Shown here in pieces: positions 2,133 through 58,893 of a DNA stretch of 64,000 nt; position 1 is the stretch's first letter; every line of letters starts with the position of its first letter. The position numbers were made by a program, and so were the translations under genes. Below the pieces are notes generated by a model. It ran no database searches and had not been told where the DNA came from. It worked only from the letters and a program-made list of their open reading frames with translations. The stretch is from a virus (taxonomy: Duplodnaviria > Caudoviricetes). The stretch lies in IMG/VR virus record IMGVR_UViG_3300027286_000002. The stretch is one strand, 5' to 3'.

Positions 2133-2420
2133 TTAAGGCATCTTGCCTGTGTTTATATACCTAAGCACACCTTTACATTCACTATATTTACTAGCTGATT
2201 CAATTGCCTGCTCTATCATCCATTGATGAAAATCAGGATCACTTTCCTGTCTTGCCTGTTCAATCCATTCTGCCATCCTGTCATTATGGTATTTCATTTC
2301 CATAATCAAGTGATGTAATTTCTCTTCTTTAATTTTATCTTTGTCTACACTTTCCACTCTAAGGTAAATAAGATAACCAAGATTTAAGAAGAGTAAAAAC
2401 GATAAAGTAAAATACTTCAT
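2133..2420 (-). CDS. Hypothetical protein with N-terminal membrane anchor
   Basis: Hydrophobic N-terminus (FTLSFLLFLNLGYLIYL) followed by helical soluble region. Confidence 0.6.
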   Translation of the reverse strand: MKYFTLSFLLFLNLGYLIYLRVESVDKDKIKEEKLHHLIMEMKYHNDRMAEWIEQARQESDPDFHQWMIEQAIESASKYSECKGVLRYINTGKMP

Positions 2421-2461
2421 TTAAAAAACCTTTCTTTTGTATGCTATTCTTATAAGAATAG

Positions 2462-2575
2462 AAACCATAGTTTCATTTTCAAGGTCAATTTTTCAGTGCA
2501 TTTTCAATATGGCTATTTTGACTGCAAAGAAACCTTTTGGAAATTTAATACAGCATTTCTAGGATAAAGAACTTT
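2462..2575. repeat. Dispersed non-coding repeat, copy 1 (copy 2 at 17193-17305)
   Basis: AAACCATAGTTTCATTTTCA...TTTTCA...TTTCAATATGGCTA.TTTG...AGCATTTCTA shared by both loci. Confidence 0.8.
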
Positions 2576-2577
2576 TT

Positions 2578-3129
2578 ATGACAAAAGAAGATTTAATAAA
2601 ATTATTAAATGAACATGGCAAAGCTAAAACCATATCTACAATCACAGGCTTGTCTTTAACTCAAATTTATAAATACATGAAACGATATGACATCAAATTG
2701 CCAAGTAAACAAATACCTAAAGAAAAACTACTTGAGATGTATCAAAATTTAAGTAGCAGGCAAATTGCTAAAGAACTTGATACATCTCATCAAACGATTG
2801 TGAATTGGCTGGATAAATACGAAATACAAAAAAAAGATCGTGGAATGCCTGCACACAAAAACAAATATCAGATCAGTAAAGACTTATTAAGTGTTTATGT
2901 AAAAGAACACAGATCATTAAATCAGATCAGTAAACATAGCAATATACCTTTAAGAGTAGTAAAGACTTTAATGCAGGAATATGGACTAAGTAAAATTGTA
3001 ATCGATAAAGCATATTTAGAAAGAGAATTTATATGTAATCAGAAATCAGTAAAGCAAATTGCAGATGAATGTAAAGTTTGTGATAAGACCATTTATTTCT
3101 ATCTTAAGAAATTTGATGTAAAGAATTAA
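2578..3129 (+). CDS. Tandem helix-turn-helix repeat protein
   Basis: About 3-4 units of L..Y....S..QIA......TI...L.KY.I. Confidence 0.75.
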   Translation: MTKEDLIKLLNEHGKAKTISTITGLSLTQIYKYMKRYDIKLPSKQIPKEKLLEMYQNLSSRQIAKELDTSHQTIVNWLDKYEIQKKDRGMPAHKNKYQISKDLLSVYVKEHRSLNQISKHSNIPLRVVKTLMQEYGLSKIVIDKAYLEREFICNQKSVKQIADECKVCDKTIYFYLKKFDVKN

Positions 3130-3704
3130 TCTAATGCAATTGGGATATAGGTATCAGTGAGTGCAAGATAACCATGTTTGTTTAAAAGATACTCTTCTAA
3201 AAGAAAGAAAATATCACTATCATCATTTGTATCACAATCATAAACTTCATCATCATTTTCAGGATTGACTACTAATTTAATGGTATCTACAATGTTTTCT
3301 ACCATGACAGGTGGAAGTTGGTTTTCTAAATCATGAAAAGGTAAAACTTCATGATTGACAAATGAATTTACATTTTTGATTTCTTTAAGAACATTCTTAT
3401 GTGGATACTTATCCAACCAAAAAGTAGTTTTAATAGTTTTATCAATGGTATCATCAAAAGTTTTGAGTAGGTAAATATCTTCTGTATTGAAAGTCCATAC
3501 AGTTTCTTTATTGCCTACTGAAAAATCACCATTAGAGTCTTGCTCAAAATTTTGCATGATGAAAGTGATGTCATCACCTTCAATAGATACAAGACTAAAC
3601 AAATTGTTAAAAGTCAATGCTGTTAACATATCATCTTGATTAACAAGTACAAGTGCAGATCCTGCTAATAAACTTTCGAGAAAGTATTCTTTTTTACTTT
3701 GCAT
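3126..3704 (-). CDS. Hypothetical protein
   Basis: 192-aa ORF coupled to upstream gene (TAATG overlap). Confidence 0.7.
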   Translation of the reverse strand: MQSKKEYFLESLLAGSALVLVNQDDMLTALTFNNLFSLVSIEGDDITFIMQNFEQDSNGDFSVGNKETVWTFNTEDIYLLKTFDDTIDKTIKTTFWLDKYPHKNVLKEIKNVNSFVNHEVLPFHDLENQLPPVMVENIVDTIKLVVNPENDDEVYDCDTNDDSDIFFLLEEYLLNKHGYLALTDTYIPIALD

Positions 3705-6812: not shown

Positions 6813-7031
6813 ATGTTAGAAATGCTTATTGACTACACAGACCACTTATCATTCATGGTAGATGAAACCTACTTAGATTTTCCCAACCACATGATTGCAT
6901 TTGAAGAAGATCTTTATGGCAATCTTTATCTTATTCAAAAGGATTGGATCTTTAGCAAAACACCTGTAGAATTTGAAGAAGCAGTAGAAATTGTTAAGAA
7001 CTTGCCTGAACCTATTTATTATCTAGATTAG
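6813..7031 (+). CDS. Hypothetical protein
   Basis: AAAGGAAAAAC RBS; 72 aa. Confidence 0.65.
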   Translation: MLEMLIDYTDHLSFMVDETYLDFPNHMIAFEEDLYGNLYLIQKDWIFSKTPVEFEEAVEIVKNLPEPIYYLD

Positions 7032-7248
7032 GTGCAAGGTAAAGATCACTTGAATTCTGCCACTCTGATTTATGTAAAGATTTAGCTATACTTAAAGATA
7101 GTGAACATCTAAAATATTCAGGATATACATAAAAACCTCTTGTACCACCATCTAATCTACAAGACCTTGAACTTATAGAAGACAAAGCAAATTTAAAAGT
7201 CTTAGAATTTAAAACTTCATCTGATGATATTTCTAACCAATAGATCAT
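7012..7248 (-). CDS. Mini-protein of the putative stand-alone methyltransferase specificity (TRD-like) family, array 1
   Basis: Probable start MIYWLEISS at 7248 (TAAAATG junction); family pattern W..S.V..SS..G..FR..LS..K..W.N..YLAP; closest to 54930-55166. Confidence 0.8.
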   Translation of the reverse strand: MIYWLEISSDEVLNSKTFKFALSSISSRSCRLDGGTRGFYVYPEYFRCSLSLSIAKSLHKSEWQNSSDLYLAPNLDNK

Positions 7249-7249
7249 T

Positions 7250-7489
7250 TTATATTTCACCACACTTTCCTATATACCTATCTGAATTATTTATCCAAGT
7301 AGGTTTAGACAACACTCTAGCACCAAATAAAGCAATTGCTAGTCTAAAGTTATCTGTGTATAGGTAATGTCCTATTCCTTTTATTGCCAGCTGTTTTGTT
7401 GGTGAGGTGGATGATGTTATATAAACACCTTGTAATGTATGACATACATCATTACTGTCATTGCTAAAGAAACCATAATGACTACTCAT
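7250..7489 (-). CDS. TRD-like mini-protein, array 1
   Basis: HYGFF.N.SNDV...TSS...KG.G.Y...NFR..I.LF.AR.L.K..WIN..D.YIGK; ATGA overlap. Confidence 0.85.
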   Translation of the reverse strand: MSSHYGFFSNDSNDVCHTLQGVYITSSTSPTKQLAIKGIGHYLYTDNFRLAIALFGARVLSKPTWINNSDRYIGKCGEI

Positions 7490-7719
7490 TTATCTTTTCC
7501 TATATACCTATCTTGATCGTTTATCCAATTATGTTTGGATAAAACCCTTGCACTATATAAAGCAATACAATGCCTTATGTTGCTTTGGTGTATATATGTT
7601 CCCATTCCTTTAATATCTCTGATAGTACCTGCTGTTGTAGATGATGCTAGATAAACAAGTTGACCAGAAAACTGTACATTATTTCCATATGATGCAAGGA
7701 AGCCATAGTGATTACTCAT
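7486..7719 (-). CDS. TRD-like mini-protein, array 1
   Basis: Family pattern; strongly similar to 11095-11340. Confidence 0.85.
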   Translation of the reverse strand: MSNHYGFLASYGNNVQFSGQLVYLASSTTAGTIRDIKGMGTYIHQSNIRHCIALYSARVLSKHNWINDQDRYIGKDK

Positions 7720-7956
7720 TTATATTTCTTTTCCTATGTAAACATCATTGTTATTTAACCCTGATCTCTTAATAAGAGATCTTGCACCAAACAGTCCTAT
7801 GGACAACCTAAAGTTATCTTTATACATATATGTACCAAAACCTTTAATATCTTTAGTAGTGGCTGGTGAAGTAGATGATGTTAGATACGCCCCAGATGCA
7901 GAATGACATACATCATTACATCCATTGTGAAAAAAACCATAAGGTGTTTTAGTCAT
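7720..7956 (-). CDS. TRD-like mini-protein, array 1 (first gene)
   Basis: Family pattern; AAAAGGAATTAACATG start. Confidence 0.85.
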   Translation of the reverse strand: MTKTPYGFFHNGCNDVCHSASGAYLTSSTSPATTKDIKGFGTYMYKDNFRLSIGLFGARSLIKRSGLNNNDVYIGKEI

Positions 7957-8011
7957 GTTAATTCCTTTTCAATATCTTATAAGATTTCTACAAGAAAGGA
8001 CTGCAAAAAAA

Positions 8012-9154
8012 ATGACAAAAGAATTATTAAATGATCTTATCCAAACCATGTCACATACTGAAATGGCATCTCATCTTAATATCTCGCTTAACCATTTAAG
8101 AAGACTATTAAGAGTTCACAATATCAAAAAACCTTTAAAAGATAAAGCAGGCAATCCTATTAATCTTAAATATGTTGAAACCTTGTATGATGCAGGACAT
8201 CCTGTTTCTAAAATCCATATTATGGTTAATGCTTCTTTTGATGCCATCTCTAACTACCTCAACCTAAATAAAATTCGTATTAGTAAAAAACTACTACAAC
8301 ACTACTTTATTGATGAAAAACTTTCCCTTACACAAATAGCTGATCGTTTTGGATCATCTCTTTCTACTATTAAAAAATACCTACTACTCTATGAAATCAT
8401 AAAACCTGATATTCATATTGAGAAACACGATTTAGAATCACATCCTAATATACTTGTTTCCGAACTAGCTATTCTCTTTAACACAGATAAAGAAACGATT
8501 AGCTACTTTCTTAAAAAATATGACTTGTCTAAAAAAGGCAAAGTCAATCAAGAAAAACTACAACAGCTTTATTGTGTTGAACATAAATCACTACAAGAGA
8601 TTGCAGACCATTTTAAAATCTCACATATAACTCTTTGGCGAAGGATTAGACAATATAAACTCACTAGAGAATTTAATCCTGATATAGACCTCTTTGAGCA
8701 AAAACTCTCTGAATATAGAGACCTACCTATGCACAAGGCTAAACAAAACCTTGCGAAATATTATAATGTTTCTGTTGGTGAAATTGAAATCTTTTTTAAA
8801 AAGCACAATCTACTTAAAAAAAGAAAAAGAAGAAAGGTTACCTACACAAATGACCAGCTAAGAAAGATGTATGAAAGACTTGGGATTAAAGGTCTTATGA
8901 AGAAACTAGATATGACTGAATATAATGTTAAAAGAGCATTAAAGAGAAATGGTATCTTGCCATATAGCAAACCAAATAAAAGACTTGTCTTATCTATTCC
9001 TAAAGACCATATCAAATATCTCTACCATAAGAAATATGAACATTATAATGCACCTAGTGCAAGACAAGCAATGGCAGATGAATTAGGTTTATCTTTATAT
9101 GCAGTTACAAGGTATATTCAAATGTATAATCTAAACAGACCAAGAATTTTCTAA
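8012..9154 (+). CDS. Tandem helix-turn-helix repeat protein (paralog of 5287-6399)
   Basis: Probable start MTKELL at 8012 after GAAAGGA; about 7-8 HTH-like units. Confidence 0.8.
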   Translation: MTKELLNDLIQTMSHTEMASHLNISLNHLRRLLRVHNIKKPLKDKAGNPINLKYVETLYDAGHPVSKIHIMVNASFDAISNYLNLNKIRISKKLLQHYFIDEKLSLTQIADRFGSSLSTIKKYLLLYEIIKPDIHIEKHDLESHPNILVSELAILFNTDKETISYFLKKYDLSKKGKVNQEKLQQLYCVEHKSLQEIADHFKISHITLWRRIRQYKLTREFNPDIDLFEQKLSEYRDLPMHKAKQNLAKYYNVSVGEIEIFFKKHNLLKKRKRRKVTYTNDQLRKMYERLGIKGLMKKLDMTEYNVKRALKRNGILPYSKPNKRLVLSIPKDHIKYLYHKKYEHYNAPSARQAMADELGLSLYAVTRYIQMYNLNRPRIF

Positions 9155-9167
9155 AAGGACACTTCTT

Positions 9168-9440
9168 ATGAAACCATTAAATCAAAATGTGATTATCAAA
9201 CCATCACCTGTAGAACCACAATCCCAATCAGGTTTATTTATTCCAGATACTGCTAAACAAGACCAATCTATTGCTACTGTGATTGCAATAGGCACAGGTT
9301 ATCCAAATGGCAAACCTTTAACAGTAAAGGTTGGCGATAAGGTAGTTTATTCCAAGTATGCAGGTGTAGAACTTAATTATGAAGATCAAGAGTATTTGGT
9401 CTTATCTGAATCGGATCTTTTGGCTGTGATTAAAAATTAA
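9168..9440 (+). CDS. groES: Co-chaperonin GroES (Cpn10)
   Basis: MKPL..NVIIKP...SGLFIPDTAK...VIAIGTG...VKVGDKVVYSKYAGVEL....YLVLSESDLLAVI, full Cpn10 signature. Confidence 0.95.
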   Translation: MKPLNQNVIIKPSPVEPQSQSGLFIPDTAKQDQSIATVIAIGTGYPNGKPLTVKVGDKVVYSKYAGVELNYEDQEYLVLSESDLLAVIKN

Positions 9441-9758: not shown

Positions 9759-9937
9759 AAAACCATTTTAGAAAAGAATGGTTTAAACCAAGTTAGCATT
9801 ATTGTACTTCCTATTCCACAACCTAATGCAGTTCCTATAAAGCACAGACAAAAAGTTAAGATTGCTTTATTTCTTATCTTATTATCACTCGCATCTACAT
9901 ATCCTGTTCTCTTTAAGAAAAACTCTAACTCATTCAT
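9755..9937 (-). CDS. Small membrane protein at end of array 2
   Basis: One hydrophobic helix; ATGA-coupled to 9934-10158. Confidence 0.55.
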   Translation of the reverse strand: MNELEFFLKRTGYVDASDNKIRNKAILTFCLCFIGTALGCGIGSTIMLTWFKPFFSKMVF

Positions 9938-10158
9938 TTATCTTCCTTACATGGTGCTAAATACCTATTAGGATTTAATATCCAATTTCCTCGTCCAATA
10001 ACTTCTCTATTTCTTGCAGTGGACAAGGCTACAAACACTCTAAAATTAATAGGAAAGATTTCAATACCTGATTTACTTGATGCTATGCTAGATAAGGTAA
10101 AAACACTATGCTCGTTTCTAGTAACTTCATTACTACTTGTTTCAAACCAACAGATCAT
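9934..10158 (-). CDS. TRD-like mini-protein, array 2
   Basis: MICWFE.SSNEV...LSS...G..I...NFR...AR...NW...YLAP. Confidence 0.85.
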   Translation of the reverse strand: MICWFETSSNEVTRNEHSVFTLSSIASSKSGIEIFPINFRVFVALSTARNREVIGRGNWILNPNRYLAPCKEDK

Positions 10159-10364
10159 TTTTCTTCATCCTTATTAGGTGCTAGATACACATTTTCATAT
10201 TTTATCCAATCATCTTGTATAATTCTTTTTGCCACAAATAAAGATATTCTTTTCTTATCATATCCATTTAAAAAAGCACTATGTCCTATTTTAGGTATGC
10301 TACTTAATACAGTAGTGCCTTGTGCATACAAATGCACAATATTACTATCAAATACAAAATACAC
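10155..10364 (-). CDS. TRD-like mini-protein, array 2
   Basis: GTG start; close paralog of 11576-11791 (MYFVFDSNIV...KIGH...GYD.KRISLFV...W....VYLAP). Confidence 0.8.
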   Translation of the reverse strand: MYFVFDSNIVHLYAQGTTVLSSIPKIGHSAFLNGYDKKRISLFVAKRIIQDDWIKYENVYLAPNKDEEK

Positions 10365-10366
10365 TT

Positions 10367-10582
10367 TTAGTTATCCTTATTAGGTTTTAAAAACCTGTCT
10401 TGATCATTTATCCTAGTATGTTTAGGTAAAATTCGAGCATTAAATAATCCTACACTTTCTCTAAAATTACTGTCCTGTACATATAAGCCTCCACTATGAG
10501 AATAAAATTTACAGGATTGCAAATAAACAAGTTGCTGTCCTTGCCATACATTATTTGAATCACTTATGAAATAAAATCTCAT
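10367..10582 (-). CDS. TRD-like mini-protein, array 2
   Basis: F..DSNNV..Q.VYL.S...GLY...NFR...LF.AR.L.K...IND.D.FL.P. Confidence 0.85.
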   Translation of the reverse strand: MRFYFISDSNNVWQGQQLVYLQSCKFYSHSGGLYVQDSNFRESVGLFNARILPKHTRINDQDRFLKPNKDN

Positions 10583-10583
10583 A

Positions 10584-10796
10584 TCATTTCTTTCTTAAAG
10601 CTAGATAAACATCATCTCTATTTATAAAGCTGGCTGTACTCACTAACCTTCTACTCATATATAAACAGACAGATCTTCTTATATTAAAAGGCTCTACATA
10701 TAGACCATGATTTACAGATGATACACCACTTAATAAAAATACATCCTGTATGTTTTTTCCTATGTTGTTATTATTGTTCTCAAACCAATAAACCAT
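10584..10796 (-). CDS. TRD-like mini-protein, array 2
   Basis: Family pattern; AAGGAAGATAGCTTATG start. Confidence 0.85.
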   Translation of the reverse strand: MVYWFENNNNNIGKNIQDVFLLSGVSSVNHGLYVEPFNIRRSVCLYMSRRLVSTASFINRDDVYLALRKK

Positions 10797-10828
10797 AAGC
10801 TATCTTCCTTATATATAGAAATCGTGAT

Positions 10829-10861
10829 TTTTTACCTATATTGTAAAAACATAGGTAAAAA
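10829..10861. terminator. Inverted repeat (possible terminator) inside array 2
   Basis: TTTTTACCTAT-N11-ATAGGTAAAAA in the only intergenic gap of the array. Confidence 0.5.
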
Positions 10862-10862
10862 C

Positions 10863-11102
10863 TTATATTGTTTTACCTATATAGACATCGTTACTGTTTA
10901 TCCAATTTGATTTTATTAATGATCTAACACTATATAAAGTAATACATCTTCTCATATTATTCTTATACATATATAAACCATTTCCCTGTACCTCTCCCCT
11001 ATTCATATGACCCGGGGATGTGAAAGATGTCATATAAGCACCTTGAGTAGCTCCTGTAATGTTATTTTCTTTAGATGTGAAAAAACCATAGTGATTACTC
11101 AT
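10863..11102 (-). CDS. TRD-like mini-protein, array 2
   Basis: MSNHYGFF subfamily. Confidence 0.85.
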   Translation of the reverse strand: MSNHYGFFTSKENNITGATQGAYMTSFTSPGHMNRGEVQGNGLYMYKNNMRRCITLYSVRSLIKSNWINSNDVYIGKTI

Positions 11103-11340
11103 TTATCTTATCCTCTCTTCCCATGTACCTATCTTGGTCGTTTATCCATGTGTGTTTTGATAACACCCTTGCACCATATAAAGCAATGACTTGCCGTATG
11201 TTACTTTGGTGTATATATGTTCCAAATCCTTTTAAGTGATGTTTTCCACCATCGGATGTTGAGGACATTAAATAAGCACCTTGAACAGACCACTGTACAT
11301 TATTACCTTCACTGATAAAGAAACCATAGTGATTACTCAT
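11095..11340 (-). CDS. TRD-like mini-protein, array 2
   Basis: MSNHYGFF subfamily; strongly similar to 7486-7719. Confidence 0.85.
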   Translation of the reverse strand: MSNHYGFFISEGNNVQWSVQGAYLMSSTSDGGKHHLKGFGTYIHQSNIRQVIALYGARVLSKHTWINDQDRYMGREDKINE

Positions 11341-11573
11341 CTTATCTTATCCTTACCTATATAGGCATCATTACTGTTTATCCATTGTGATTTTATAAGT
11401 GTCTTTACTACAAATAAACTCACTGTCTGTCTTATATTATTTTTCTCTACATAATAACCAGCTTGCCCCATTAAACCTATACCACATCTAGGATAAGACC
11501 TTGTACTTAATAAATAACAATCCTGCATACCATGCTGTATGTCATTCCCATTACTATTAAAATAACAAATCAT
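11337..11573 (-). CDS. TRD-like mini-protein, array 2
   Basis: MICYFNSNGNDI...LLST...GYYV..NNIR...LFV.K.LIK..WIN..D.YIGK. Confidence 0.85.
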   Translation of the reverse strand: MICYFNSNGNDIQHGMQDCYLLSTRSYPRCGIGLMGQAGYYVEKNNIRQTVSLFVVKTLIKSQWINSNDAYIGKDKIR

Positions 11574-11575
11574 TC

Positions 11576-11791
11576 TTATCTCTTTGGTGCTAAATAAACA
11601 TCATCATGCTTTTCCCATGATGATTTAATAACTGATCTACATACAAATAAAGATATTCTTTTTCTGTCATATCCTCTTAAATATGCACAGTGTCCTATCT
11701 TTGGCTCACCACTAAAAAGTAAAACCCAAGAAGTATTCGTCCTCACTATATTACTATCAAATACAAAATACATTCTATTACTTCGGATCAT
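11576..11791 (-). CDS. TRD-like mini-protein, array 2 (first gene, ATGA-coupled to the methyltransferase)
   Basis: ATG at 11791 overlaps the MTase TGA (TCAT at 11788-11791). Confidence 0.8.
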   Translation of the reverse strand: MIRSNRMYFVFDSNIVRTNTSWVLLFSGEPKIGHCAYLRGYDRKRISLFVCRSVIKSSWEKHDDVYLAPKR

Positions 11792-13350
11792 TCTTTTAAA
11801 AATCCATATTCATATACACCCGGTCTTAACTTATCACCTAAAACCTTATGCAATTCTTTTAACTTCTTAAAATCTGCATTATACTCTTTTTCCCAAAATC
11901 CCTTTAACTGATACCACCCACAATCCCAACATAATAACTGCAACTCAGGATTCGCTTTAGCATATGCCTCTCTTGTTGCCAATGACTTTAACCATAATTC
12001 TGTAGCATGAACTAATAATGCCACTGCCTCTTCACTTAATGTCAATTCTGCTATTAATGTAGACACATAAGATTCTTCATAATACTTCTCATAATCTGCT
12101 AACATCAATGCACTATGCTCTTCTATTGCACCACGAATGCCATATCTCTCTAACCAAAAGAAATGATTCTTAATTTGCCAAATCTCACCACCCCATGATA
12201 CATCTCTCATAGATGTACAATTATTCTTCGTTTCAAAAATAGAATAAATATGTCCATCATCCACCCACTGCTCATAGCCTGTCTTTACTTCACTTGATGT
12301 ATGCTTATATTTATTCCCTTCGTCTAACCACCTCTGTGTAAATGGTATCGATGGATATGCAATATATTCAATTTCTTTTTCAGGTGCTTTTTTAATTGGA
12401 CCCGTCTTTTCCCTTTCCTTGATTTTAAGACCACTTGTCATAATTGGATATTCATAGGTTTCCATATCTTTAATAGGTTCTCTAACCCACTCACTAGCTG
12501 GCATATGGTTATCGCAATTATAAATCTGTTTCCATCCATAATGACTTGCATCAAGATTTTTAATTTCTAACTTTGGATCTGTCTTAGTTTTCCCTTCACT
12601 CCAAATCGTAAAGCCTACTCCCCATTCAGATGAAACACCTGCAAATGCACTCGCATTAAAGAAAAATCCTGCTTTAAATTCAAAGGCATTGTAATACCAT
12701 TCTCTAAATTTCTTTGCTGTTTCCTGAATCATAAACTTGATTGGTGAAAAGAAACATAAACTGACTTTCTTATATCCAAAATACTTTGCCTGTCTTGCAC
12801 ATTCAAAAATAAATTGAAAATATAAATTAGAACGACAAGCACCTAAATGCAACATCTTTTCTTTAACAAGTGTATTACTCACACCTTCTTTATTTTCTTC
12901 ATCATCTGCAAGTGTACCTGCCGCCGCATATGGTGGATTAATAAAGAACACAAGTCTTTTACCTGCCTTTGCTCCTGCATATAACTGATCTTGCACTGCA
13001 TCTGGAATAACATTGCTTTCATCACCTAAGCTAAACAAACATCCATCTGTATCTGTTGGATTTAAGAAATCATACTTAAAAGCATTTTTAAATCCTTGCT
13101 TATGTAGTAAATCCACTTCAGGTTGCTCTAATGTAGATAAGATTAAATTCTTAAAATCATATTCTCTAATCAAATTGCCTGAGCCTGAACAACAATCCCA
13201 TACAAGACTTTCTTCTTTCCAAGTTTCACCTAAGACATTACTTGTTAAGGTATGTGCTTGATCCACCCATAAAGCTGGTGTAAAAAATGCACCTTGTCTT
13301 GTTCGGATTTCATTCTCTAAGGTTTCATCATATCTGTGATGTTCACTCAT
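11788..13350 (-). CDS. Orphan N6-adenine DNA methyltransferase (gamma class), target-recognition region apparently shortened
   Basis: Motif X GAFFTP, motif I VWDCCSGSGNL, motif IV FINPPY; no nuclease domain. Confidence 0.9.
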   Translation of the reverse strand: MSEHHRYDETLENEIRTRQGAFFTPALWVDQAHTLTSNVLGETWKEESLVWDCCSGSGNLIREYDFKNLILSTLEQPEVDLLHKQGFKNAFKYDFLNPTDTDGCLFSLGDESNVIPDAVQDQLYAGAKAGKRLVFFINPPYAAAGTLADDEENKEGVSNTLVKEKMLHLGACRSNLYFQFIFECARQAKYFGYKKVSLCFFSPIKFMIQETAKKFREWYYNAFEFKAGFFFNASAFAGVSSEWGVGFTIWSEGKTKTDPKLEIKNLDASHYGWKQIYNCDNHMPASEWVREPIKDMETYEYPIMTSGLKIKEREKTGPIKKAPEKEIEYIAYPSIPFTQRWLDEGNKYKHTSSEVKTGYEQWVDDGHIYSIFETKNNCTSMRDVSWGGEIWQIKNHFFWLERYGIRGAIEEHSALMLADYEKYYEESYVSTLIAELTLSEEAVALLVHATELWLKSLATREAYAKANPELQLLCWDCGWYQLKGFWEKEYNADFKKLKELHKVLGDKLRPGVYEYGFLKE

Positions 13351-14177
13351 TTTTTTTCTTTCACATGGTCTAAATGGTTAAAAAAAGTTTTCACTAAATC
13401 TGCTCTTGAAATTTTATCTTCCAACTCTTTTCTTAAAAAGAAACACTTGATCTTTGAATCATATTTATGTGTTTCCACTGATGCAAACTCTGCATCATCT
13501 TTTAAGATATATGTTGTCTTTAACTTCCCTGCAAAATCCAATACTATTAAATACAAACTCTGATCTTTAAATCCTAAAGAAAATACTTTGCTCGCTTTTC
13601 TTGATGCACCTTCTGCAATCTGATGCCACATCAAATTGCCTATTAATTCTACACCTAAATCTTTGGCATCAAAATTTGAGATATTTGCATATCTATTTGT
13701 ACGAAAGACTGCTCTCTTATCATCTAATGTTAGTCCTCTTAATTCTTGATTGCTCGCATCTACATGATAAGTATTATAGATATTAATCATATCACTTAAA
13801 ATCCCTGCCTTTTTCATCAGCTCAATCTTATTTTGCAAAATCCTTTTTGAACCATATTCCAAATCAAATTTTTGCCTGTATAAAACATCTCTTTGCTTTT
13901 CTAGTTCTAACATTTCTTTTTCTAATGTTGAATTAATTGCAACTGCCTCTTCTGTATGTTTTTCATATATATGACTATAATCATTCGGATATGATGTCAT
14001 TTGCTTTAATGGCTTTAATACTGCTCTACTCGCAAGCACTGCTTTATGCACACCATCATATTTATTTGATGCCTCTCGATATTCTTTATCAAGAGTTTCA
14101 TATCTTTTTTGTATAGATGCTAAAAACATCTCACACTGCTCTAAATATGTCATTTCTGCTTTCTCCTTTGTAAGCAA
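13347..14177 (-). CDS. Hypothetical protein with N-terminal coiled coil
   Basis: 276 aa, ATGA-coupled to the MTase. Confidence 0.7.
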   Translation of the reverse strand: MLTKEKAEMTYLEQCEMFLASIQKRYETLDKEYREASNKYDGVHKAVLASRAVLKPLKQMTSYPNDYSHIYEKHTEEAVAINSTLEKEMLELEKQRDVLYRQKFDLEYGSKRILQNKIELMKKAGILSDMINIYNTYHVDASNQELRGLTLDDKRAVFRTNRYANISNFDAKDLGVELIGNLMWHQIAEGASRKASKVFSLGFKDQSLYLIVLDFAGKLKTTYILKDDAEFASVETHKYDSKIKCFFLRKELEDKISRADLVKTFFNHLDHVKEKK

Positions 14178-54709: not shown

Positions 54710-54928
54710 TTATTTATCTTCTTTCTTTGGTGAGATATATAAATCAGAATCTACAATCCAATTATTTCTGCCTACGATTTCTCTTGCTCTTGCAATCGAT
54801 AATGCCATACACCTTCTAAAATTATCTTTTGTAATCACAAGTCCAGCTCCTTCATAATTGTTTATATAATGACATAGCTTTTCATTATATTGAAACCTAT
54901 TGCCACCATGATGAAACCAATATAACAT
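54710..54928 (-). CDS. TRD-like mini-protein, array 3
   Basis: Family pattern; closest to 55625-55846 (NNYEGAG/NNYQGAG). Confidence 0.85.
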   Translation of the reverse strand: MLYWFHHGGNRFQYNEKLCHYINNYEGAGLVITKDNFRRCMALSIARAREIVGRNNWIVDSDLYISPKKEDK

Positions 54929-54929
54929 T

Positions 54930-55166
54930 TTATCTACATTCTTTCTTAGGTGCTAAATACACATCTGCTTGATTTATCCAAGTATGTTTTATTAAAGATT
55001 TAGATACACTTAATGCTATGCTATCTCTAAAATAATAAGGCTGTAAAAAGAAACCTTGTTTGCCACAATCATCTCTACTAGCTTTTGAAGTAATAGAACT
55101 AATAAAATACTTATATTGTGATGAGTGCATTACATCATTTGATGATAATTCTAACCAACAAATCAT
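54930..55166 (-). CDS. TRD-like mini-protein, array 3
   Basis: Family pattern; closest to 7012-7248. Confidence 0.85.
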   Translation of the reverse strand: MICWLELSSNDVMHSSQYKYFISSITSKASRDDCGKQGFFLQPYYFRDSIALSVSKSLIKHTWINQADVYLAPKKECR

Positions 55167-55390
55167 TTCTCTTCATCCTTAATAATAGGAGCATAATATC
55201 TATCACAATTATTTATCCAAGTTCTATTTATAACATCTCTTCCTCTTGCTACATAGATAGACATATTTAATCTAAAGTTTTTCTGATCTATGTAATATCC
55301 TGAATGTCTACTAGATACACTTGATAAAAAGAAGACATGAGAATCAATAGATGTGATGTCATTATTTGAATTTTCAAACCAACAAATCAT
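55163..55390 (-). CDS. TRD-like mini-protein, array 3
   Basis: MICWFENSNNDI...FLSS...GYYI..KNFR...AR...TWIN..D.YYAP. Confidence 0.85.
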   Translation of the reverse strand: MICWFENSNNDITSIDSHVFFLSSVSSRHSGYYIDQKNFRLNMSIYVARGRDVINRTWINNCDRYYAPIIKDEEK

Positions 55391-55395
55391 TTTAC

Positions 55396-55623
55396 TTATC
55401 TTTCTATAGTAGGTTTAAAATACATATCATTAGCACGATGCCAATTCTCATATTTCCTAGAATCCATAAGATAACCTGTTCTCACAATATAGAAAGCTAA
55501 AGCATCTCTAAAATTAGTTTCTTTTATAGGTAATCCTGTGTTTCCAAAAGAACTTGAAGTGATTAACACAAATCGAGTATTTCTTTTCACTTCATTCGCT
55601 GACATCTCAAAACTAAAAATCAT
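55396..55623 (-). CDS. TRD-like mini-protein, array 3
   Basis: F..S.NEV...TSS...G..I...NFR...Y..R...NW...D.YF.P. Confidence 0.8.
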   Translation of the reverse strand: MIFSFEMSANEVKRNTRFVLITSSSFGNTGLPIKETNFRDALAFYIVRTGYLMDSRKYENWHRANDMYFKPTIER

Positions 55624-55624
55624 T

Positions 55625-55846
55625 TTACTTATCTCTCTTACATGGTGCTAAATGCACATCACAATCTTGATACCAATTTCTACCATTAGGCTGGACTAAT
55701 GCTCTAACATTAAAGAAAGCTATACTCTTCCTAAATGAGTTTCCCTCCCTTATATGAAATCCTGCACCTTGATAGTTATTTACTAAGAATACTAACTCTT
55801 TATTGTATCTTACTAAATTTCCATGTGAGTGAAACCAACAGATCAT
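55625..55846 (-). CDS. TRD-like mini-protein, array 3
   Basis: Family pattern. Confidence 0.85.
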   Translation of the reverse strand: MICWFHSHGNLVRYNKELVFLVNNYQGAGFHIREGNSFRKSIAFFNVRALVQPNGRNWYQDCDVHLAPCKRDK

Positions 55847-55847
55847 T

Positions 55848-56069
55848 TTACTTATCTTTCTTACATGGTGCTAAATATACATCAGGATCGTTCATCCATG
55901 TATTTTCAGGTAAAGTCCTAGCTATAAATAAACCTATTGTATTTCTAAACGATTCTTTATTTCTAGGATACATTCCACTAACATTAGATGATAATTTAGA
56001 TGAAATAAAACATACAAGTAAAGGATTGAACTGCACATTATTGCCATTATTATTAAACCAACAGATCAT
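55848..56069 (-). CDS. TRD-like mini-protein, array 3
   Basis: Probable start MICWFNNNGNNV at 56069. Confidence 0.85.
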   Translation of the reverse strand: MICWFNNNGNNVQFNPLLVCFISSKLSSNVSGMYPRNKESFRNTIGLFIARTLPENTWMNDPDVYLAPCKKDK

Positions 56070-56286
56070 TTTTTGTTCTTTCCACTGATAATGCCAAATA
56101 CACATCAGGATCATTCATCCAAGTATGTTTAGGTAAAGACCTTCCTATATATAAAGAAATTGACTTCCTAAAATTATCTTTTCTTATATAGAAACCATGT
56201 TGATTGTGATATGCACTACTAAATAATGCTACTTGCCAATGATTATGACATACACAACCACCACGATTATTAAAATAACAGATCAT
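56053..56286 (-). CDS. TRD-like mini-protein, array 3 (first gene, 6 bp after the DNA polymerase stop)
   Basis: MICYFNN...FSS...HGFYI..DNFRK...Y..R.LPK.TWMNDPDVYLA. Confidence 0.85.
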   Translation of the reverse strand: MICYFNNRGGCVCHNHWQVALFSSAYHNQHGFYIRKDNFRKSISLYIGRSLPKHTWMNDPDVYLALSVERTKNDLLV

Positions 56287-56292
56287 TTTAAT

Positions 56293-58893
56293 TTATTCCT
56301 TTAATAAGATAGATACATCTCTACCTTGATACATAATCTTAATGTCTTTACCTGCATTATTCTTAATCCATTCGCTTAACCTGTCTGTTTCACTATGAGA
56401 TAACTCACTCAACTCATAAATCTCATAATGCTTTGCTTTTTCCTCTTGCTCCGTGCTTAAGGTTGTTTCATTTAATACCTTTGGCTTTGGCTGTCCACTA
56501 TGATCTACTTTAAAAGCATTTACTAAAAACTCATCTTCACCTTTGCCTTCCCTTAACTCTTTCAAGTCATAAGGCACAGACCAATCTTTTCCTATCTCAA
56601 CATCCACTGTTAATGGTACAATCCAATTCTTATTTTGCAATGCTTTATTCCTAACCATAATATCACATAACAAAGGTATCGCTTCACCTATAATGTCTTT
56701 ATGGATTTCAAACACAATTTCATCATGCACTGTTAAAATCATCATTAGCTTATCAAACCAATTTCTCTTTTTAACATTCTCATAAATTAAACTCATTGCA
56801 ATCTTAGTAATATCTGCACTCGTACCTTGCACAGGTGAATTTACTGCCTTTCTCTCATCCTTTGATCTCAAAGAAAACTCTTTAGATTTAATATCAGGCA
56901 TTAACATTCTTCGACCAAAAGCTGTTAATACATATCCATTTTCTTTGGCAAAATCCACTTCCTTTTTCCACCACTTTGTTAAACCTTTATATGTCTTTGT
57001 AAAGGTTTGATATTTCTCATCACCTTCTTCTTGAGTACAACTAATAGTTCTAACTACTGCTTTACCTGTACCACCATAACATAAAGCAAAATTAACACCT
57101 TTCGCATTGCCTCTTAATGCTTTCCAATCAGGTCTTTTCTTTGCCTCTTCACCATAAAAAGCAACTGCTGTCAATGTATGCAAATCACCTATTTTATCTG
57201 ATCCACATATACAGATAGCTGGTGGTATAATAGGAAATCCATCTTCGCCTCGTTCTTTAGTATATTTACGATTGCATGATGAACATCTAAAAAATTCTTC
57301 AATCCATAAAGGCTCTTGACTAATGTTTGTTACAATTCTTAACTCAACACCTGCATAGTCAATTGCTACTAAATAATGATCAGGATTTCTTACTGCAATA
57401 CACTCTCTTAATCTTGAAGTAATCATTGGTCTTTTCGGATCATATCCTGATGGAATACCTTGAAAAGGTACTCTACAACCACCATCTTTTGTCTCCCATG
57501 GTCTACTTGTAGTACCACAACTAAAACGACCTGTATCTGCTCCGAACTGATTAAACTTTGGTTTTAATGTACCATCATCTGCAATATCTTCTTTCATAGG
57601 TATGAGATATTGACCTAATGCTTTAGCTAGTTCTCTTAATCTTTTAATCTTTCTCACAAATGGAAAAGTATCGGATGCCTCTTCAATTACTTCATCTAAA
57701 ACATCAGCACCTGTTGCCACTTGACCACTTGCAGTAGTTTGTAAATTAGGTACTTCTAATTCTCTAAACATCATGCCTAATTGTTGAGAAGATAAAATAT
57801 CATATTTATATTCAAAGACTACTTCTTCTTTTTGTTTAGGATTAGTTAAAGATGCTACCATTTTTCTAGCTACAAAATCTTCACCTGCCATATCTAAATG
57901 TGGATACATACGATCAGCTTCTTTTCTTGCCTCGTCTATGCAATCTTTAAAGCTATCTGTATTATCTGTATTAAACTTATTAACACCTTTTAAATCGCCT
58001 TTCATGATTTTAATGTATGCTGGCATAACATCTCTACCAAGTAATTCATTTGCTCCTTCATATACTTCAATAAGGCTGTCCATCCATTCCTTTTGACCAA
58101 TCTTAATAAACTCTTGTGTTTTCTTTTGATCAATATAAACTCTGTTTCTGTGCATCCACCTAACTGATGTATTGCATTTCTTTTCTATCATATAAAGACT
58201 AATCATTTCTTTAGGAAAGATGTCTTTTAAGATATTATAAAGTTTAAGAGTACATAAAGCATCAGCACCTGCATACCATACACAAGCATCCCAAGACGGA
58301 TCAAGAGTAGAATAATCTTTAATTTTAGATTTAGGAATGAGTTCATCAAGTTCAATCATTTCCCAACCTAATTTATCTTTAGACATATCTTTAAGACCAC
58401 GACCACCTTTATCACGACTGTTCATAAGACAAGCCATAATATAGTTATCTTCCCATAGCTTTGGATTTTCAAATCTTTCTTTACCTAAAAGAGTTTCGCC
58501 ATTATATTCTAAAAACTCTTGATCAAAAGCACCATTATGGAATATAGGAATAGCAGTAGCATTTACATTAAGCAAGCGACTAAATTCTCTATCTATGATT
58601 GACCATGAAACATTATGTTCTGTACCTGCACTGTGTCTAATAGGAAAGTAATATGCTTTCTTTTCATTCGGAGCAATAGAAATACCTACAATAGATGCTC
58701 TTGTTCTACCATGAAAAACACGATTATCTAAACCTGTTGTTTCTAAGTCTATGCCATAATGACTAGATGCCAAACATTCATCAATAGCTTGTTTAATATT
58801 ATCTTTAGTACCTAAAATGAGATCAACTTCTTTCATCCATTTTTTAGGTTTAACATCTGGTCTTTGTAGTGATTCAAAGAAATCTGAAAACAT
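56293..58893 (-). CDS. Family A DNA polymerase with 3'-5' exonuclease
   Basis: Exo I IDLETTG, Exo II FHNGAFD, Exo III YAGADA; motif A IDYAGVELRI, motif B RGNAKGVNFALCYG, motif C TVHDEIVFE. Confidence 0.95.
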   Translation of the reverse strand: MFSDFFESLQRPDVKPKKWMKEVDLILGTKDNIKQAIDECLASSHYGIDLETTGLDNRVFHGRTRASIVGISIAPNEKKAYYFPIRHSAGTEHNVSWSIIDREFSRLLNVNATAIPIFHNGAFDQEFLEYNGETLLGKERFENPKLWEDNYIMACLMNSRDKGGRGLKDMSKDKLGWEMIELDELIPKSKIKDYSTLDPSWDACVWYAGADALCTLKLYNILKDIFPKEMISLYMIEKKCNTSVRWMHRNRVYIDQKKTQEFIKIGQKEWMDSLIEVYEGANELLGRDVMPAYIKIMKGDLKGVNKFNTDNTDSFKDCIDEARKEADRMYPHLDMAGEDFVARKMVASLTNPKQKEEVVFEYKYDILSSQQLGMMFRELEVPNLQTTASGQVATGADVLDEVIEEASDTFPFVRKIKRLRELAKALGQYLIPMKEDIADDGTLKPKFNQFGADTGRFSCGTTSRPWETKDGGCRVPFQGIPSGYDPKRPMITSRLRECIAVRNPDHYLVAIDYAGVELRIVTNISQEPLWIEEFFRCSSCNRKYTKERGEDGFPIIPPAICICGSDKIGDLHTLTAVAFYGEEAKKRPDWKALRGNAKGVNFALCYGGTGKAVVRTISCTQEEGDEKYQTFTKTYKGLTKWWKKEVDFAKENGYVLTAFGRRMLMPDIKSKEFSLRSKDERKAVNSPVQGTSADITKIAMSLIYENVKKRNWFDKLMMILTVHDEIVFEIHKDIIGEAIPLLCDIMVRNKALQNKNWIVPLTVDVEIGKDWSVPYDLKELREGKGEDEFLVNAFKVDHSGQPKPKVLNETTLSTEQEEKAKHYEIYELSELSHSETDRLSEWIKNNAGKDIKIMYQGRDVSILLKE

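What the first reader, a model, noticed from the sequence alone, without database searches (positions are those of the whole stretch)
9934..13350. Candidate new system: orphan methyltransferase core plus a library of 19 stand-alone specificity (TRD-like) mini-genes
Seen: 19 paralogous 69-81 aa ORFs in three arrays (4 at 7012-7956, 8 at 9934-11791, 7 at 54710-56286). They share the skeleton [FWY]..N/S.N.V...SS...G.Y/I...NFR...L[FY]..R...W.N..D.Y[LI][AG][PK] and are highly variable between these anchors. All are intact, with their own start and RBS-like sequence. The largest array begins in an ATGA overlap with the stop of an NPPY N6-adenine MTase. Recalled, not searched: full-length MTases of this type carry a segment with this same skeleton between P.[LM][ST]S[AG]LK and Y[EQ].[WF]..D...YS[IL]F, which is their target-recognition region. 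Inference: one catalytic core is loaded in trans with any of many interchangeable specificity subunits. The phage could then methylate many different motifs and pre-empt diverse host restriction systems without phase variation or recombination. Alternative: the mini-proteins act as decoys or dominant-negative inserts against host type IIG enzymes.
Basis: partly seen in the sequence, partly recalled or inferred. Interest (0 to 1): 0.95.

Follow-up and report, generated by a model that had tools for sequence, protein, structure and literature searches.

The report
Gapped phage methyltransferase with 19 plug-in modules
A freshwater jumbo phage encodes an adenine DNA methyltransferase that lacks one ~70-residue piece of its DNA-recognition domain, and encodes that piece separately as 19 divergent mini-genes, which probably lets one enzyme methylate many different DNA motifs to escape host restriction.

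Summary
The window holds 19 intact paralogous mini-genes (69-83 aa) in three minus-strand arrays. The largest array starts in an ATGA overlap with the stop of a 520-aa NPPY protein.

Full-length homologs carry one ~70-aa module at exactly the place where the window's protein has a gap. The mini-protein profile aligns to that module (hhalign 99%, E 8e-18).

Across 41 related phage loci the split is clean. Gapped enzymes are followed by stand-alone modules. Intact enzymes have none nearby. Other relatives carry 2-5 modules in tandem in cis.

The family has no match in Pfam, NCBIfam, PADLOC or PHROGs. Its fold is a gamma-class N6-adenine DNA methyltransferase (DrdV Z 18.9, M.TaqI 16.9), and the module lies in the domain at the TRD position.

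A predicted complex supports binding: score 0.81, best of 3 controls 0.00 (mark reached by 58 of 80 solved complexes and 2 of 110 mismatched pairs).

Orthologous modules are under purifying selection (dN/dS 0.11-0.30). Their exposed loops are 87% identical between orthologs and 18% between paralogs.

Best reading: a multispecific methyltransferase assembled in trans. Methylation, DNA specificity and anti-restriction are inferred, not shown.

The scan's first readers noted a similar arrangement on another genome (e1-5366064).

The parts
11788..13350 (-). Gapped gamma-class N6-adenine DNA methyltransferase, 520 aa. It has the catalytic core and most of the C-terminal (TRD-position) domain, has no N-terminal nuclease-like domain, and lacks the ~70-aa module.
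   Evidence: Motifs X, I and IV (NPPY) in gamma order. Homologs; alignments A2 and A5. Fold of an intact homolog matches DrdV, LlaBIII, M.TaqI, M.BseCI, CamA and MmeI. No hit in Pfam, NCBIfam, PADLOC or PHROGs.
12280..12426 (-). The gap: residues ~309-357, a charged ~45-aa linker that replaces the module. It is conserved among the gapped enzymes and keeps a possible remnant (WLDEGNKY) of the module's last element.
   Evidence: Alignment A2. Conservation in A7. The HMMER match of the enzyme breaks here, between profile positions 584 and 636. The linker is mostly outside the predicted interface.
11576..11791 (-). Module mini-gene, array 2, first after the enzyme (71 aa). Its start overlaps the enzyme's stop (ATGA).
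11337..11573 (-). Module mini-gene, array 2 (78 aa). This is the one used in the predicted complex.
   Evidence: Orthologs at 76-89% identity in L001, L004 and L006.
11095..11340 (-). Module mini-gene, array 2 (81 aa)
10863..11102 (-). Module mini-gene, array 2 (79 aa)
10584..10796 (-). Module mini-gene, array 2 (70 aa)
10367..10582 (-). Module mini-gene, array 2 (71 aa)
10155..10364 (-). Module mini-gene, array 2 (69 aa, GTG start)
9934..10158 (-). Module mini-gene, array 2, last (74 aa)
7720..7956 (-). Module mini-gene, array 1 (78 aa)
7486..7719 (-). Module mini-gene, array 1 (77 aa)
7250..7489 (-). Module mini-gene, array 1 (79 aa)
7012..7263 (-). Module mini-gene, array 1 (83 aa, GTG start)
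56053..56286 (-). Module mini-gene, array 3, first (77 aa). It starts 7 nt after the stop of the DNA polymerase A gene (56293-58893).
55848..56069 (-). Module mini-gene, array 3 (73 aa from the internal Met; the open frame reaches 56114)
55625..55846 (-). Module mini-gene, array 3 (73 aa)
55396..55623 (-). Module mini-gene, array 3 (75 aa)
55163..55390 (-). Module mini-gene, array 3 (75 aa)
54930..55166 (-). Module mini-gene, array 3 (78 aa)
54710..54928 (-). Module mini-gene, array 3, last (72 aa)
13347..14177 (-). 276-aa gene of unknown function just upstream. Its stop overlaps the enzyme's start by 4 nt. A ~268-aa gene stands at this position in the closest relatives only; its homology to this one was not tested. 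Whether it belongs to the system is unknown.
   Evidence: coordinates; a 268-aa gene upstream in L001-L003, but not in L004-L006. No family hit.

Best explanation
This is a multispecific adenine DNA methyltransferase built from separate parts. The 520-aa protein supplies the S-adenosylmethionine-dependent catalytic core and most of the C-terminal recognition domain. It lacks a ~70-residue module (three beta-strands and a helix) that intact relatives have in that domain.

Each of the 19 mini-proteins is a version of that module. Its conserved strands and helix dock into the empty slot, and its two variable loops stay exposed. The infected cell would then hold a mixture of up to 19 holoenzymes that differ only in those loops.

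I infer that the loops help read the DNA sequence. Each holoenzyme would then methylate a different motif, and the phage genome would be protected against many adenine-sensitive restriction systems at once.

Shown here: the homology of the mini-proteins to the module; the matching gap in the enzyme; strict co-occurrence; purifying selection; conservation of the exposed loops within each type; and repeated amplification of the module in relatives.

Supported by a model only: binding of a mini-protein to the enzyme.

Inferred: methyltransferase activity, DNA as the substrate, the module as a specificity determinant, and the anti-restriction role.
For: Homology and the gap:
- The profile of the 19 mini-proteins aligns to one internal segment of the full-length family (hhalign prob 99.0, E 8e-18; P0106 residues 339-406).
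- A full-family HMM matches the window's enzyme in two pieces (positions 242-584 and 636-826). It matches 14 mini-genes at ~580-652.

Co-occurrence:
- The window and 8 loci with gapped enzymes (L001-L007, L010) have 1-14 stand-alone modules within reach of the contig.
- The 31 loci with an intact (module-bearing) enzyme in reach have none nearby and carry the module internally.

Fold:
- An intact homolog models well (pLDDT 88.5) and matches DNA adenine methyltransferases: DrdV Z 18.9 (rmsd 3.5, 265 aligned), LlaBIII 17.4, M.TaqI 16.9, then M.BseCI, CamA, MmeI and BrxX.
- The C-terminal domain alone (pLDDT 93.6) gives only weak matches. However, 11 of the top 25 among 48,161 chains are TRDs or HsdS subunits (M.BseCI 325-574 Z 5.5, PglX, CamA, EcoR124I HsdS, DrdV).

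Binding:
- Predicted complex score 0.81, best of 3 controls 0.00. The mark was reached by 58 of 80 solved complexes and 2 of 110 mismatched pairs; own alignments were used, so these counts hold only roughly. About 200 contacts.

Selection:
- Each module type has orthologs at 70-89% identity in other phages. Paralogs within the window are mostly 36-58% identical.
- dN/dS of 18 ortholog pairs is 0.11-0.30.
- Positions outside the predicted interface are 87% identical between orthologs against 76% for interface positions. Between paralogs they are 18% against 34%.

Variability:
- In the intact family, the most variable stretch of the whole protein is P0106 321-372. This covers the first half of the module: entropy 2.1-2.35 bits against a mean of 1.27.

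Repeated amplification:
- Relatives carry 2, 3, 4 or 5 modules in tandem in cis. These arose independently, because the modules cluster by protein.
- The stand-alone state arose essentially once: 2 changes on the tree against 65 with shuffled labels.

Context:
- Loci of the gapped enzymes are rich in other DNA methyltransferases.
- The window strongly avoids short palindromes.
Against: - No experiment and no methylome; no RNA data were found.
- That the variable loops face DNA could not be checked, because model coordinates are not exposed by the tools.
- The C-terminal domain resembles solved TRDs only weakly (best Z 5.5, and Foldseek found nothing at E <= 0.001).
- The module is only about a quarter of that domain, so it may tune recognition rather than define it.
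- The complex score is a model's own confidence, obtained with my own alignments, and only one of the 19 mini-proteins was tried.
- Nineteen subunits competing for one enzyme raises an unanswered stoichiometry question.
- The linker that replaces the module is itself conserved, and its role is unexplained.
Confidence: 0.6

Rival explanations
1. The mini-proteins do complete the enzyme's fold, but their diversity serves something other than DNA sequence choice. Possibilities are escape from host factors that bind or degrade this surface of the enzyme, recruitment of the enzyme to different partners, or different timing (the three arrays sit in different operon contexts).
For: Binding is supported, but DNA contact by the loops is not shown. 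Array 3 follows the DNA polymerase gene and array 2 follows the enzyme gene, so expression may differ. The structural match to known TRDs is weak.
Against: Exposed loops are highly conserved within each type across phages and differ between types. This fits fixed ligands better than an arms race. The same region is the hypervariable spot of intact enzymes, as TRDs are in other methyltransferases. Tandem cis copies arose repeatedly, as in the multispecific Bacillus-phage enzymes (PMC12707154).
Confidence: 0.17
2. The mini-proteins are decoys or dominant-negative pieces. They would poison related nuclease-methyltransferase fusion enzymes of the host or of competing huge phages, rather than serve the phage's own enzyme.
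For: Long relatives have an extra N-terminal domain that may be a PD-(D/E)xK nuclease (motifs in A2; weak atlas leads to HSDR_N). They are carried by other huge phages, so conflict between phages is conceivable.
Against: Stand-alone modules occur only beside gapped enzymes. Intact enzymes already hold their own module in cis, which leaves no slot to fill. The conserved face of the mini-protein is the one predicted to dock on the phage's own enzyme. The first mini-gene is translationally coupled to the enzyme gene.
Confidence: 0.06
3. The complex acts on RNA or on another substrate, or has lost catalysis and serves only as a sequence-specific nucleic-acid binder. Examples would be a regulator of phage gene expression or a packaging factor.
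For: Activity is untested. NPPY also occurs in rRNA and protein methyltransferases (own knowledge).
Against: All top structural matches are DNA adenine methyltransferases, and the first RNA enzyme (KsgA) appears only at Z 13.9, rank 50. Motifs X, I and IV are intact and invariant across the family.
Confidence: 0.08

Closest known systems
Multispecific cytosine-C5 DNA methyltransferases of temperate Bacillus phages (SPR, phi3T, rho11s type)
   Same: One phage enzyme protects against many restriction systems by using several interchangeable recognition units with one catalytic core (PMC12707154, citing Trautner et al. 1996). Relatives of the window's enzyme with 2-5 tandem modules in cis copy this layout.
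   Different: Those are C5-cytosine enzymes with whole TRDs in one polypeptide. Here the enzyme is a gamma-class N6-adenine enzyme, the unit is a ~70-aa sub-module, and in this phage the units are 19 separate genes acting in trans.
Type I restriction-modification HsdM plus exchangeable HsdS specificity subunits (including phase-variable hsdS shufflons)
   Same: The catalytic subunit and the specificity subunit are separate polypeptides, and swapping the specificity subunit changes the target (PMC12707154). The HsdM fold matches the core (Z ~16). HsdS chains are among the weak matches of the C-terminal domain.
   Different: HsdS is a 400-aa protein with two TRDs and coiled-coil spacers, and it forms M2S1. 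Here a 70-aa piece fills a slot inside a domain that otherwise stays on the catalytic chain. All 19 variants are intact genes in one orientation with no invertase seen nearby, so no recombination looks needed (expression itself is untested).
Type IIL / IIG / ISP single-chain enzymes (MmeI, DrdV, LlaGI/LlaBIII) and BREX PglX
   Same: Best whole-chain structural matches: a gamma-class adenine methyltransferase followed by a TRD (DrdV Z 18.8 over model residues 1-578; MmeI, BrxX). Long relatives add an N-terminal domain at the place of the nuclease domain.
   Different: No sequence-family match. The window's protein has no nuclease domain and an incomplete recognition domain.
Naturally split methyltransferases (M.AquI, M.EcoHK31I; own knowledge) and engineered fragment complementation (M.SssI, PMC3404938)
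   Same: An active enzyme is assembled from two polypeptides.
   Different: Those have one fixed partner, not a library. They are C5 enzymes.

Membership tests
Gamma-class N6-adenine (amino) DNA methyltransferases | Motif order X (G.[FY][FY]TP), then I (D/E..G.G), then IV (NPP[YF]) | tested here: met
   GAFFTP at residues 20-25, VWDCCSGSGNL at 50-60 and NPPY at 138-141. These are invariant across 53 homologs.
Gamma-class N6-adenine (amino) DNA methyltransferases | Rossmann-like methyltransferase fold matching solved members | tested here: met
   The model of intact homolog P0106 (pLDDT 88.5) matches DrdV at Z 18.9, LlaBIII at 17.4, M.TaqI at 16.9 and HsdM at ~16. Foldseek gives E 3e-8 to 1e-6. 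The window's own protein was not folded alone.
Gamma-class N6-adenine (amino) DNA methyltransferases | SAM-dependent m6A formation on DNA | not testable with these tools
   Needs an enzyme assay or a methylome.
Gamma-class N6-adenine (amino) DNA methyltransferases | Match to a curated family model (N6_Mtase, Eco57I, MmeI_Mtase and the like) | tested here: not met
   No significant hit in Pfam, NCBIfam, PADLOC or PHROGs. The best were E 0.02-0.16 to PglX, MAD2 and MTase_II fragments. No PDB sequence hit even with a profile.
Target-recognition domain (TRD) of gamma-class enzymes / HsdS | Domain placed C-terminal to the catalytic domain | tested here: met
   The module lies at P0106 339-406, within the 296-584 domain that aligns with the TRD part of M.TaqI, M.BseCI, CamA and DrdV.
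Target-recognition domain (TRD) of gamma-class enzymes / HsdS | Clear fold similarity to solved TRDs | tested here: inconclusive
   Best Z is 5.5 (M.BseCI 325-574, rmsd 4.1, 134 aligned). TRD or HsdS chains take 11 of the top 25 ranks, but all others are below Z 5. Foldseek found nothing at E <= 0.001.
Target-recognition domain (TRD) of gamma-class enzymes / HsdS | Contacts DNA bases and sets the recognised sequence | not testable with these tools
   Indirect only: it is the most variable stretch of the family and has type-specific conserved exposed loops.
Type IIL/IIG restriction-modification fusion enzymes (MmeI/DrdV-like) | N-terminal PD-(D/E)xK nuclease domain on the same chain | tested here: not met
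   The window's protein starts at motif X. The ~270-aa N-terminal domain of long relatives is absent, and nothing like it was found elsewhere in the 146.7-kb record.
Multispecific phage C5 methyltransferases | C5-cytosine methyltransferase core (PF00145) with tandem TRDs in one chain | tested here: not met
   No PF00145 match in the protein or in the record. The modules here are separate genes. It works like this family but is not a member.
Type I HsdS specificity subunit | Two TRDs separated by conserved coiled-coil regions, ~400 aa | tested here: not met
   The mini-proteins are 69-83 aa: three strands and one helix.

The most novel reading that the evidence does not exclude
A virus keeps a genetically encoded library of plug-in sub-domain cartridges for one enzyme. 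Each of the 19 cartridges completes the recognition domain of the same gapped adenine methyltransferase and gives it a different DNA target. A single catalytic gene would then yield up to 19 specificities without recombination or phase variation. The same module has been amplified again and again in huge phages, 2-5 copies in cis or up to 19 in trans, which would make it a natural, swappable specificity cassette for DNA methylation.
Probability: 0.5. Interest if true: 0.9.

Novelty: new variant of a known kind. Interest (0 to 1): 0.85.

Why it matters
Phages are known to escape restriction with multispecific methyltransferases, but only as tandem TRDs in one cytosine-C5 enzyme.

Here the same goal appears to be reached in a different enzyme class and in a new way: a gapped enzyme plus a library of tiny trans-acting modules. 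The protein family is absent from Pfam, NCBIfam, PADLOC and PHROGs.

If each module sets a motif, three things follow:
- It would explain how huge freshwater phages cope with many restriction systems.
- It would define the minimal specificity-determining unit of a gamma-class methyltransferase.
- It would offer a natural kit of about 70-residue cartridges for retargeting DNA methylation. The top 150 hits alone include over 100 stand-alone representatives at the 50% identity level.

It is also a clear example of a protein domain broken into a scaffold and an exchangeable insert, a form of combinatorial enzyme assembly rarely seen outside immune-type systems.

Tried and rejected
Searches that found nothing:
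- No significant family was found for the enzyme, the mini-proteins or the long homologs in Pfam, NCBIfam, PADLOC or PHROGs.
- PDB sequence searches with a single sequence and with a 40-row profile gave no hit.
- tblastn of the enzyme against 50,697 GenBank phage records gave no match.
- Foldseek of the C-terminal domain alone gave nothing at E <= 0.001.
- A search for RNA runs found 20 freshwater or riverine DNA holders and no RNA holder, so expression is untested.
- Literature searches for a split or multispecific adenine methyltransferase with module arrays in jumbo phages found no description.

Ideas considered and rejected:
- The mini-genes are hypervariable, as in diversity-generating or arms-race evolution. 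Rejected: each type is conserved across phages and under purifying selection.
- The modules were recently captured from intact enzymes. Rejected: stand-alone modules form one clade with no cis modules inside.
- A separate nuclease-domain gene makes this a full restriction system. Nothing matched profile positions 1-241 in the record, but the record is only ~47% complete.
- The predicted interface is enriched in family-invariant residues of the enzyme. Counted by hand, this gave 24 observed against 18 expected, which is not convincing, so it is not used.

Full report
**What is there**

The window is part of a 146.7-kb virus record that CheckV estimates to be 47% complete, so the phage is probably a jumbo phage. 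Near-identical DNA occurs in at least 20 freshwater and riverine metagenome runs.

On the minus strand lie 19 intact paralogous mini-genes in three arrays: 7012-7956 (4 genes), 9934-11791 (8 genes) and 54710-56286 (7 genes). Each matches the family HMM at E 1e-21 to 1e-33. No further copies exist in the record.

One ORF (55848-56114) probably starts at an internal Met, which makes it 73 aa. The first gene of array 2 starts in an ATGA overlap with the stop of a 520-aa gene at 11788-13350. Array 3 starts 7 nt after the DNA polymerase A gene.

The 520-aa protein carries motif X (GAFFTP), motif I (VWDCCSGSGNL) and motif IV (NPPY) in the gamma-class order.

**The gap and the modules**

A protein search found 12 close relatives of 510-557 aa (67-91% identity). 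It also found hundreds of more distant homologs, 35-44% identical, mostly 800-870 aa and some 570-610 aa.

In the alignment, the long and middle forms carry a ~70-residue segment between the conserved SSGL.VK and GYEQWVDD elements. That segment has the same skeleton as the mini-proteins. The window's protein and all its close relatives have a conserved, charged ~45-residue linker there instead.

Three results confirm the match:
- Profile-profile comparison of the 19 mini-proteins against 40 intact homologs gives probability 99.0 and E 8e-18. The aligned region is exactly this segment, P0106 residues 339-406.
- A full-family HMM run over the phage record matches the enzyme in two pieces, positions 242-584 and 636-826.
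- The same HMM matches 14 of the mini-genes at positions ~580-652.

**Co-occurrence**

I fetched 41 related loci bearing a member of the family (L040 and L041 hold only the enzyme's first ~100 residues at a contig end). Every locus with a gapped enzyme (L001-L007, L010) has stand-alone module genes directly downstream: 14 in L001, at least 9 in L004, 8 in L010, 7 in L006 and 4 in L005.

The 31 loci where an intact (module-bearing) enzyme is in reach have none nearby and carry the module inside the enzyme. All these contigs look viral. Many are 100-536 kb long and carry phage replication and structural genes.

**What kind of enzyme**

No curated family matches any form of the protein in Pfam, NCBIfam, PADLOC or PHROGs. 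PDB sequence searches with a single sequence and with a profile also found nothing.

An AlphaFold2 model of an intact 584-aa homolog is confident (pLDDT 88.5, pTM 0.85). Its matches are DNA adenine methyltransferases:
- DrdV: Z 18.9, rmsd 3.5, 265 aligned. A second DrdV entry gives Z 18.8 over model residues 1-578.
- LlaBIII: Z 17.4.
- M.TaqI: Z 16.9, model 20-419 against chain 21-411.
- M.BseCI, HsdM, CamA, MmeI and BrxX follow.

The module forms strands 339-343, 355-358 and 367-370 and helix 375-387, inside the C-terminal domain that sits where these enzymes have their TRD.

Folded alone, that domain is very confident (pLDDT 93.6) but has only weak structural neighbours. The best is the TRD part of M.BseCI (Z 5.5). 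TRDs or HsdS subunits take 11 of the top 25 ranks among 48,161 chains. Foldseek finds nothing significant. I therefore call it a divergent domain at the TRD position, not a proven TRD.

**Does a mini-protein fit the gapped enzyme?**

I ran one predicted complex, the enzyme plus the mini-protein at 11337-11573, using my own alignments. The verdict was that the model supports binding without showing it. The score was 0.81 and the best of 3 controls was 0.00. That mark was reached by 58 of 80 solved complexes and 2 of 110 mismatched pairs, and these counts hold only roughly with my own alignments.

The model has about 200 contacts. The mini-protein touches the enzyme through the stretches that correspond to the module's strands and helix (residues 1-5, 19-27 and 40-76). 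Positions 14-18 and 28-39 stay free.

Interface positions are less variable across 51 mini-proteins than free positions (2.10 against 2.58 bits, p 0.03).

**Evolution**

- Each module type has orthologs at 70-89% identity in other phages, although the enzymes of those phages are only 69-91% identical. Paralogs within the window are mostly 36-58% identical.
- Eighteen ortholog pairs give dN/dS of 0.11-0.30. These are real, constrained genes.
- The free (non-interface) positions are more conserved than interface positions between orthologs (87% against 76%). They are much less conserved between paralogs (18% against 34%).
- This is the pattern expected for positions that define a type-specific function.
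- In the intact family, the most variable stretch of the whole protein is P0106 321-372, which is the linker and the first half of the module.

**Relatives with other layouts**

A search of 1.84 billion representatives with the module profile found 554 proteins at E <= 0.001. Among the 149 newly listed proteins of the best 150, 106 are stand-alone proteins of 64-134 aa.

- The strongest hits are enzymes with tandem modules in cis: P0121 has 5, P0123 has 4, P0122 has 3, and several others have 2. The enzyme in L035 also has 2.
- In L043 the enzyme is split at another point. A 515-aa gene holds the N-terminal domain and the core, and a 313-aa gene holds the whole C-terminal domain. The two genes overlap by 10 nt.
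- On a tree of 199 modules, 111 of 112 stand-alone modules fall on one side of a single branch (support 83), and no cis module falls on that side.
- The cis/trans state changes twice on that tree, against 65 (minimum 54) with shuffled labels.
- Tandem cis modules cluster by protein, so duplication in cis happened independently several times.

**Interpretation**

The simplest account is a methyltransferase whose recognition domain takes one of many interchangeable modules. Modules are arrayed in cis in some huge phages and encoded as a library in trans in this lineage.

This parallels the multispecific C5 enzymes of Bacillus phages, which array several TRDs in one chain to defeat many restriction systems (PMC12707154). 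It differs from them in enzyme class, in the size of the unit and in acting in trans.

Context fits an anti-restriction role:
- Loci of gapped enzymes hold several other DNA methyltransferases.
- The record has two tandem Dam-like genes.
- The window almost lacks GANTC, GCGC, CCWGG, GGCC and GCNGC.

Still inferred: catalysis, DNA as the substrate, that the free loops read bases, and protection from restriction.

**Rivals**

I considered three rival readings: module diversity serves something other than sequence choice; the mini-proteins are decoys against related enzymes; or the complex acts on a non-DNA substrate or has no catalytic role. They are weighed in their own sections. None explains the combination of strict co-occurrence, docking on the phage's own enzyme and type-specific loop conservation as well as the main reading does.

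**Earlier notes of this scan**

First-stage notes on the same genome describe the gap (e1-5320819) and array 3 (e1-5320829). I tested both and they hold. A note on another genome (e1-5366064) describes an orphan NPPY enzyme followed by seven free-standing modules. I did not examine that DNA.

**Verdict**

It is a new variant of a known strategy (a multispecific anti-restriction methyltransferase), built on an unannotated enzyme family with a new split architecture.

Noticed in passing
window 1-64000: Extreme avoidance of short palindromes. GANTC 0, GCGC 0, CCWGG 0, GGCC 1, CCGG 5 and GCNGC 2 (about 40 expected from base composition), while GATC occurs 271 times and AGCT 161 times.
   Followed up: partly
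window 7955-9154 (+): A 399-aa protein made of repeated helix-turn-helix units. It resembles the DNA-binding part of phage HNH homing endonucleases (phrog_8446, E 3e-20). It sits on the opposite strand between arrays 1 and 2. Genes with faint helix-turn-helix Pfam hits interrupt the arrays in L001 as well. It may be a mobile insertion that split one array.
   Followed up: partly
window 9168-9440 (+): A 90-aa ORF that looks like a GroES/Cpn10 co-chaperonin by eye. It lies in the plus-strand cassette between arrays 1 and 2. Not searched.
   Followed up: no
L035:9947-11965 (+); proteins P0121, P0122, P0123, P0124: Relatives of the enzyme with 2, 5, 3, 4 and 2 modules in tandem within one polypeptide. 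P0121 also looks circularly permuted or mis-joined, because the C-terminal helical part comes first.
   Followed up: partly
L043:712-2259 and 2250-3191 (+): Another natural split of the same family. A 515-aa gene holds the N-terminal domain and the methyltransferase core. A 313-aa gene holds the whole C-terminal domain with one module. The two genes overlap by 10 nt.
   Followed up: partly
long homologs such as P0057 residues 1-265 (L008:8001-8800): The ~270-aa N-terminal extension of the long forms has D...E.K-type motifs (TDG, then LLEAK). It gives weak atlas leads to HSDR_N nuclease domains and to the ISP coupler (scores below 0.9). Huge phages may therefore carry Type IIL-like nuclease-methyltransferase fusions. 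Not folded.
   Followed up: partly
G000:C1:2405-3376 (outside the window): Two tandem Dam-like (MethyltransfD12) genes. No C5 or N6_N4 methyltransferase was found in the 146.7-kb record.
   Followed up: no
window, 3' ends of the mini-genes (e.g. 11095-11110, 9934-9950): The conserved Lys/Asp/Glu-rich tails of the mini-proteins are encoded by AAGGA-type purine runs. These also serve as the Shine-Dalgarno-like sequence of the next mini-gene.
   Followed up: partly
L008 (436-kb contig): The neighbourhood of an intact homolog holds an anti-Pycsar Apyc1-like gene, two PARP-domain proteins, an NAD-dependent ligase, a sigma factor and an intein-like gene. This looks like a huge-phage counter-defence region.
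   Followed up: no
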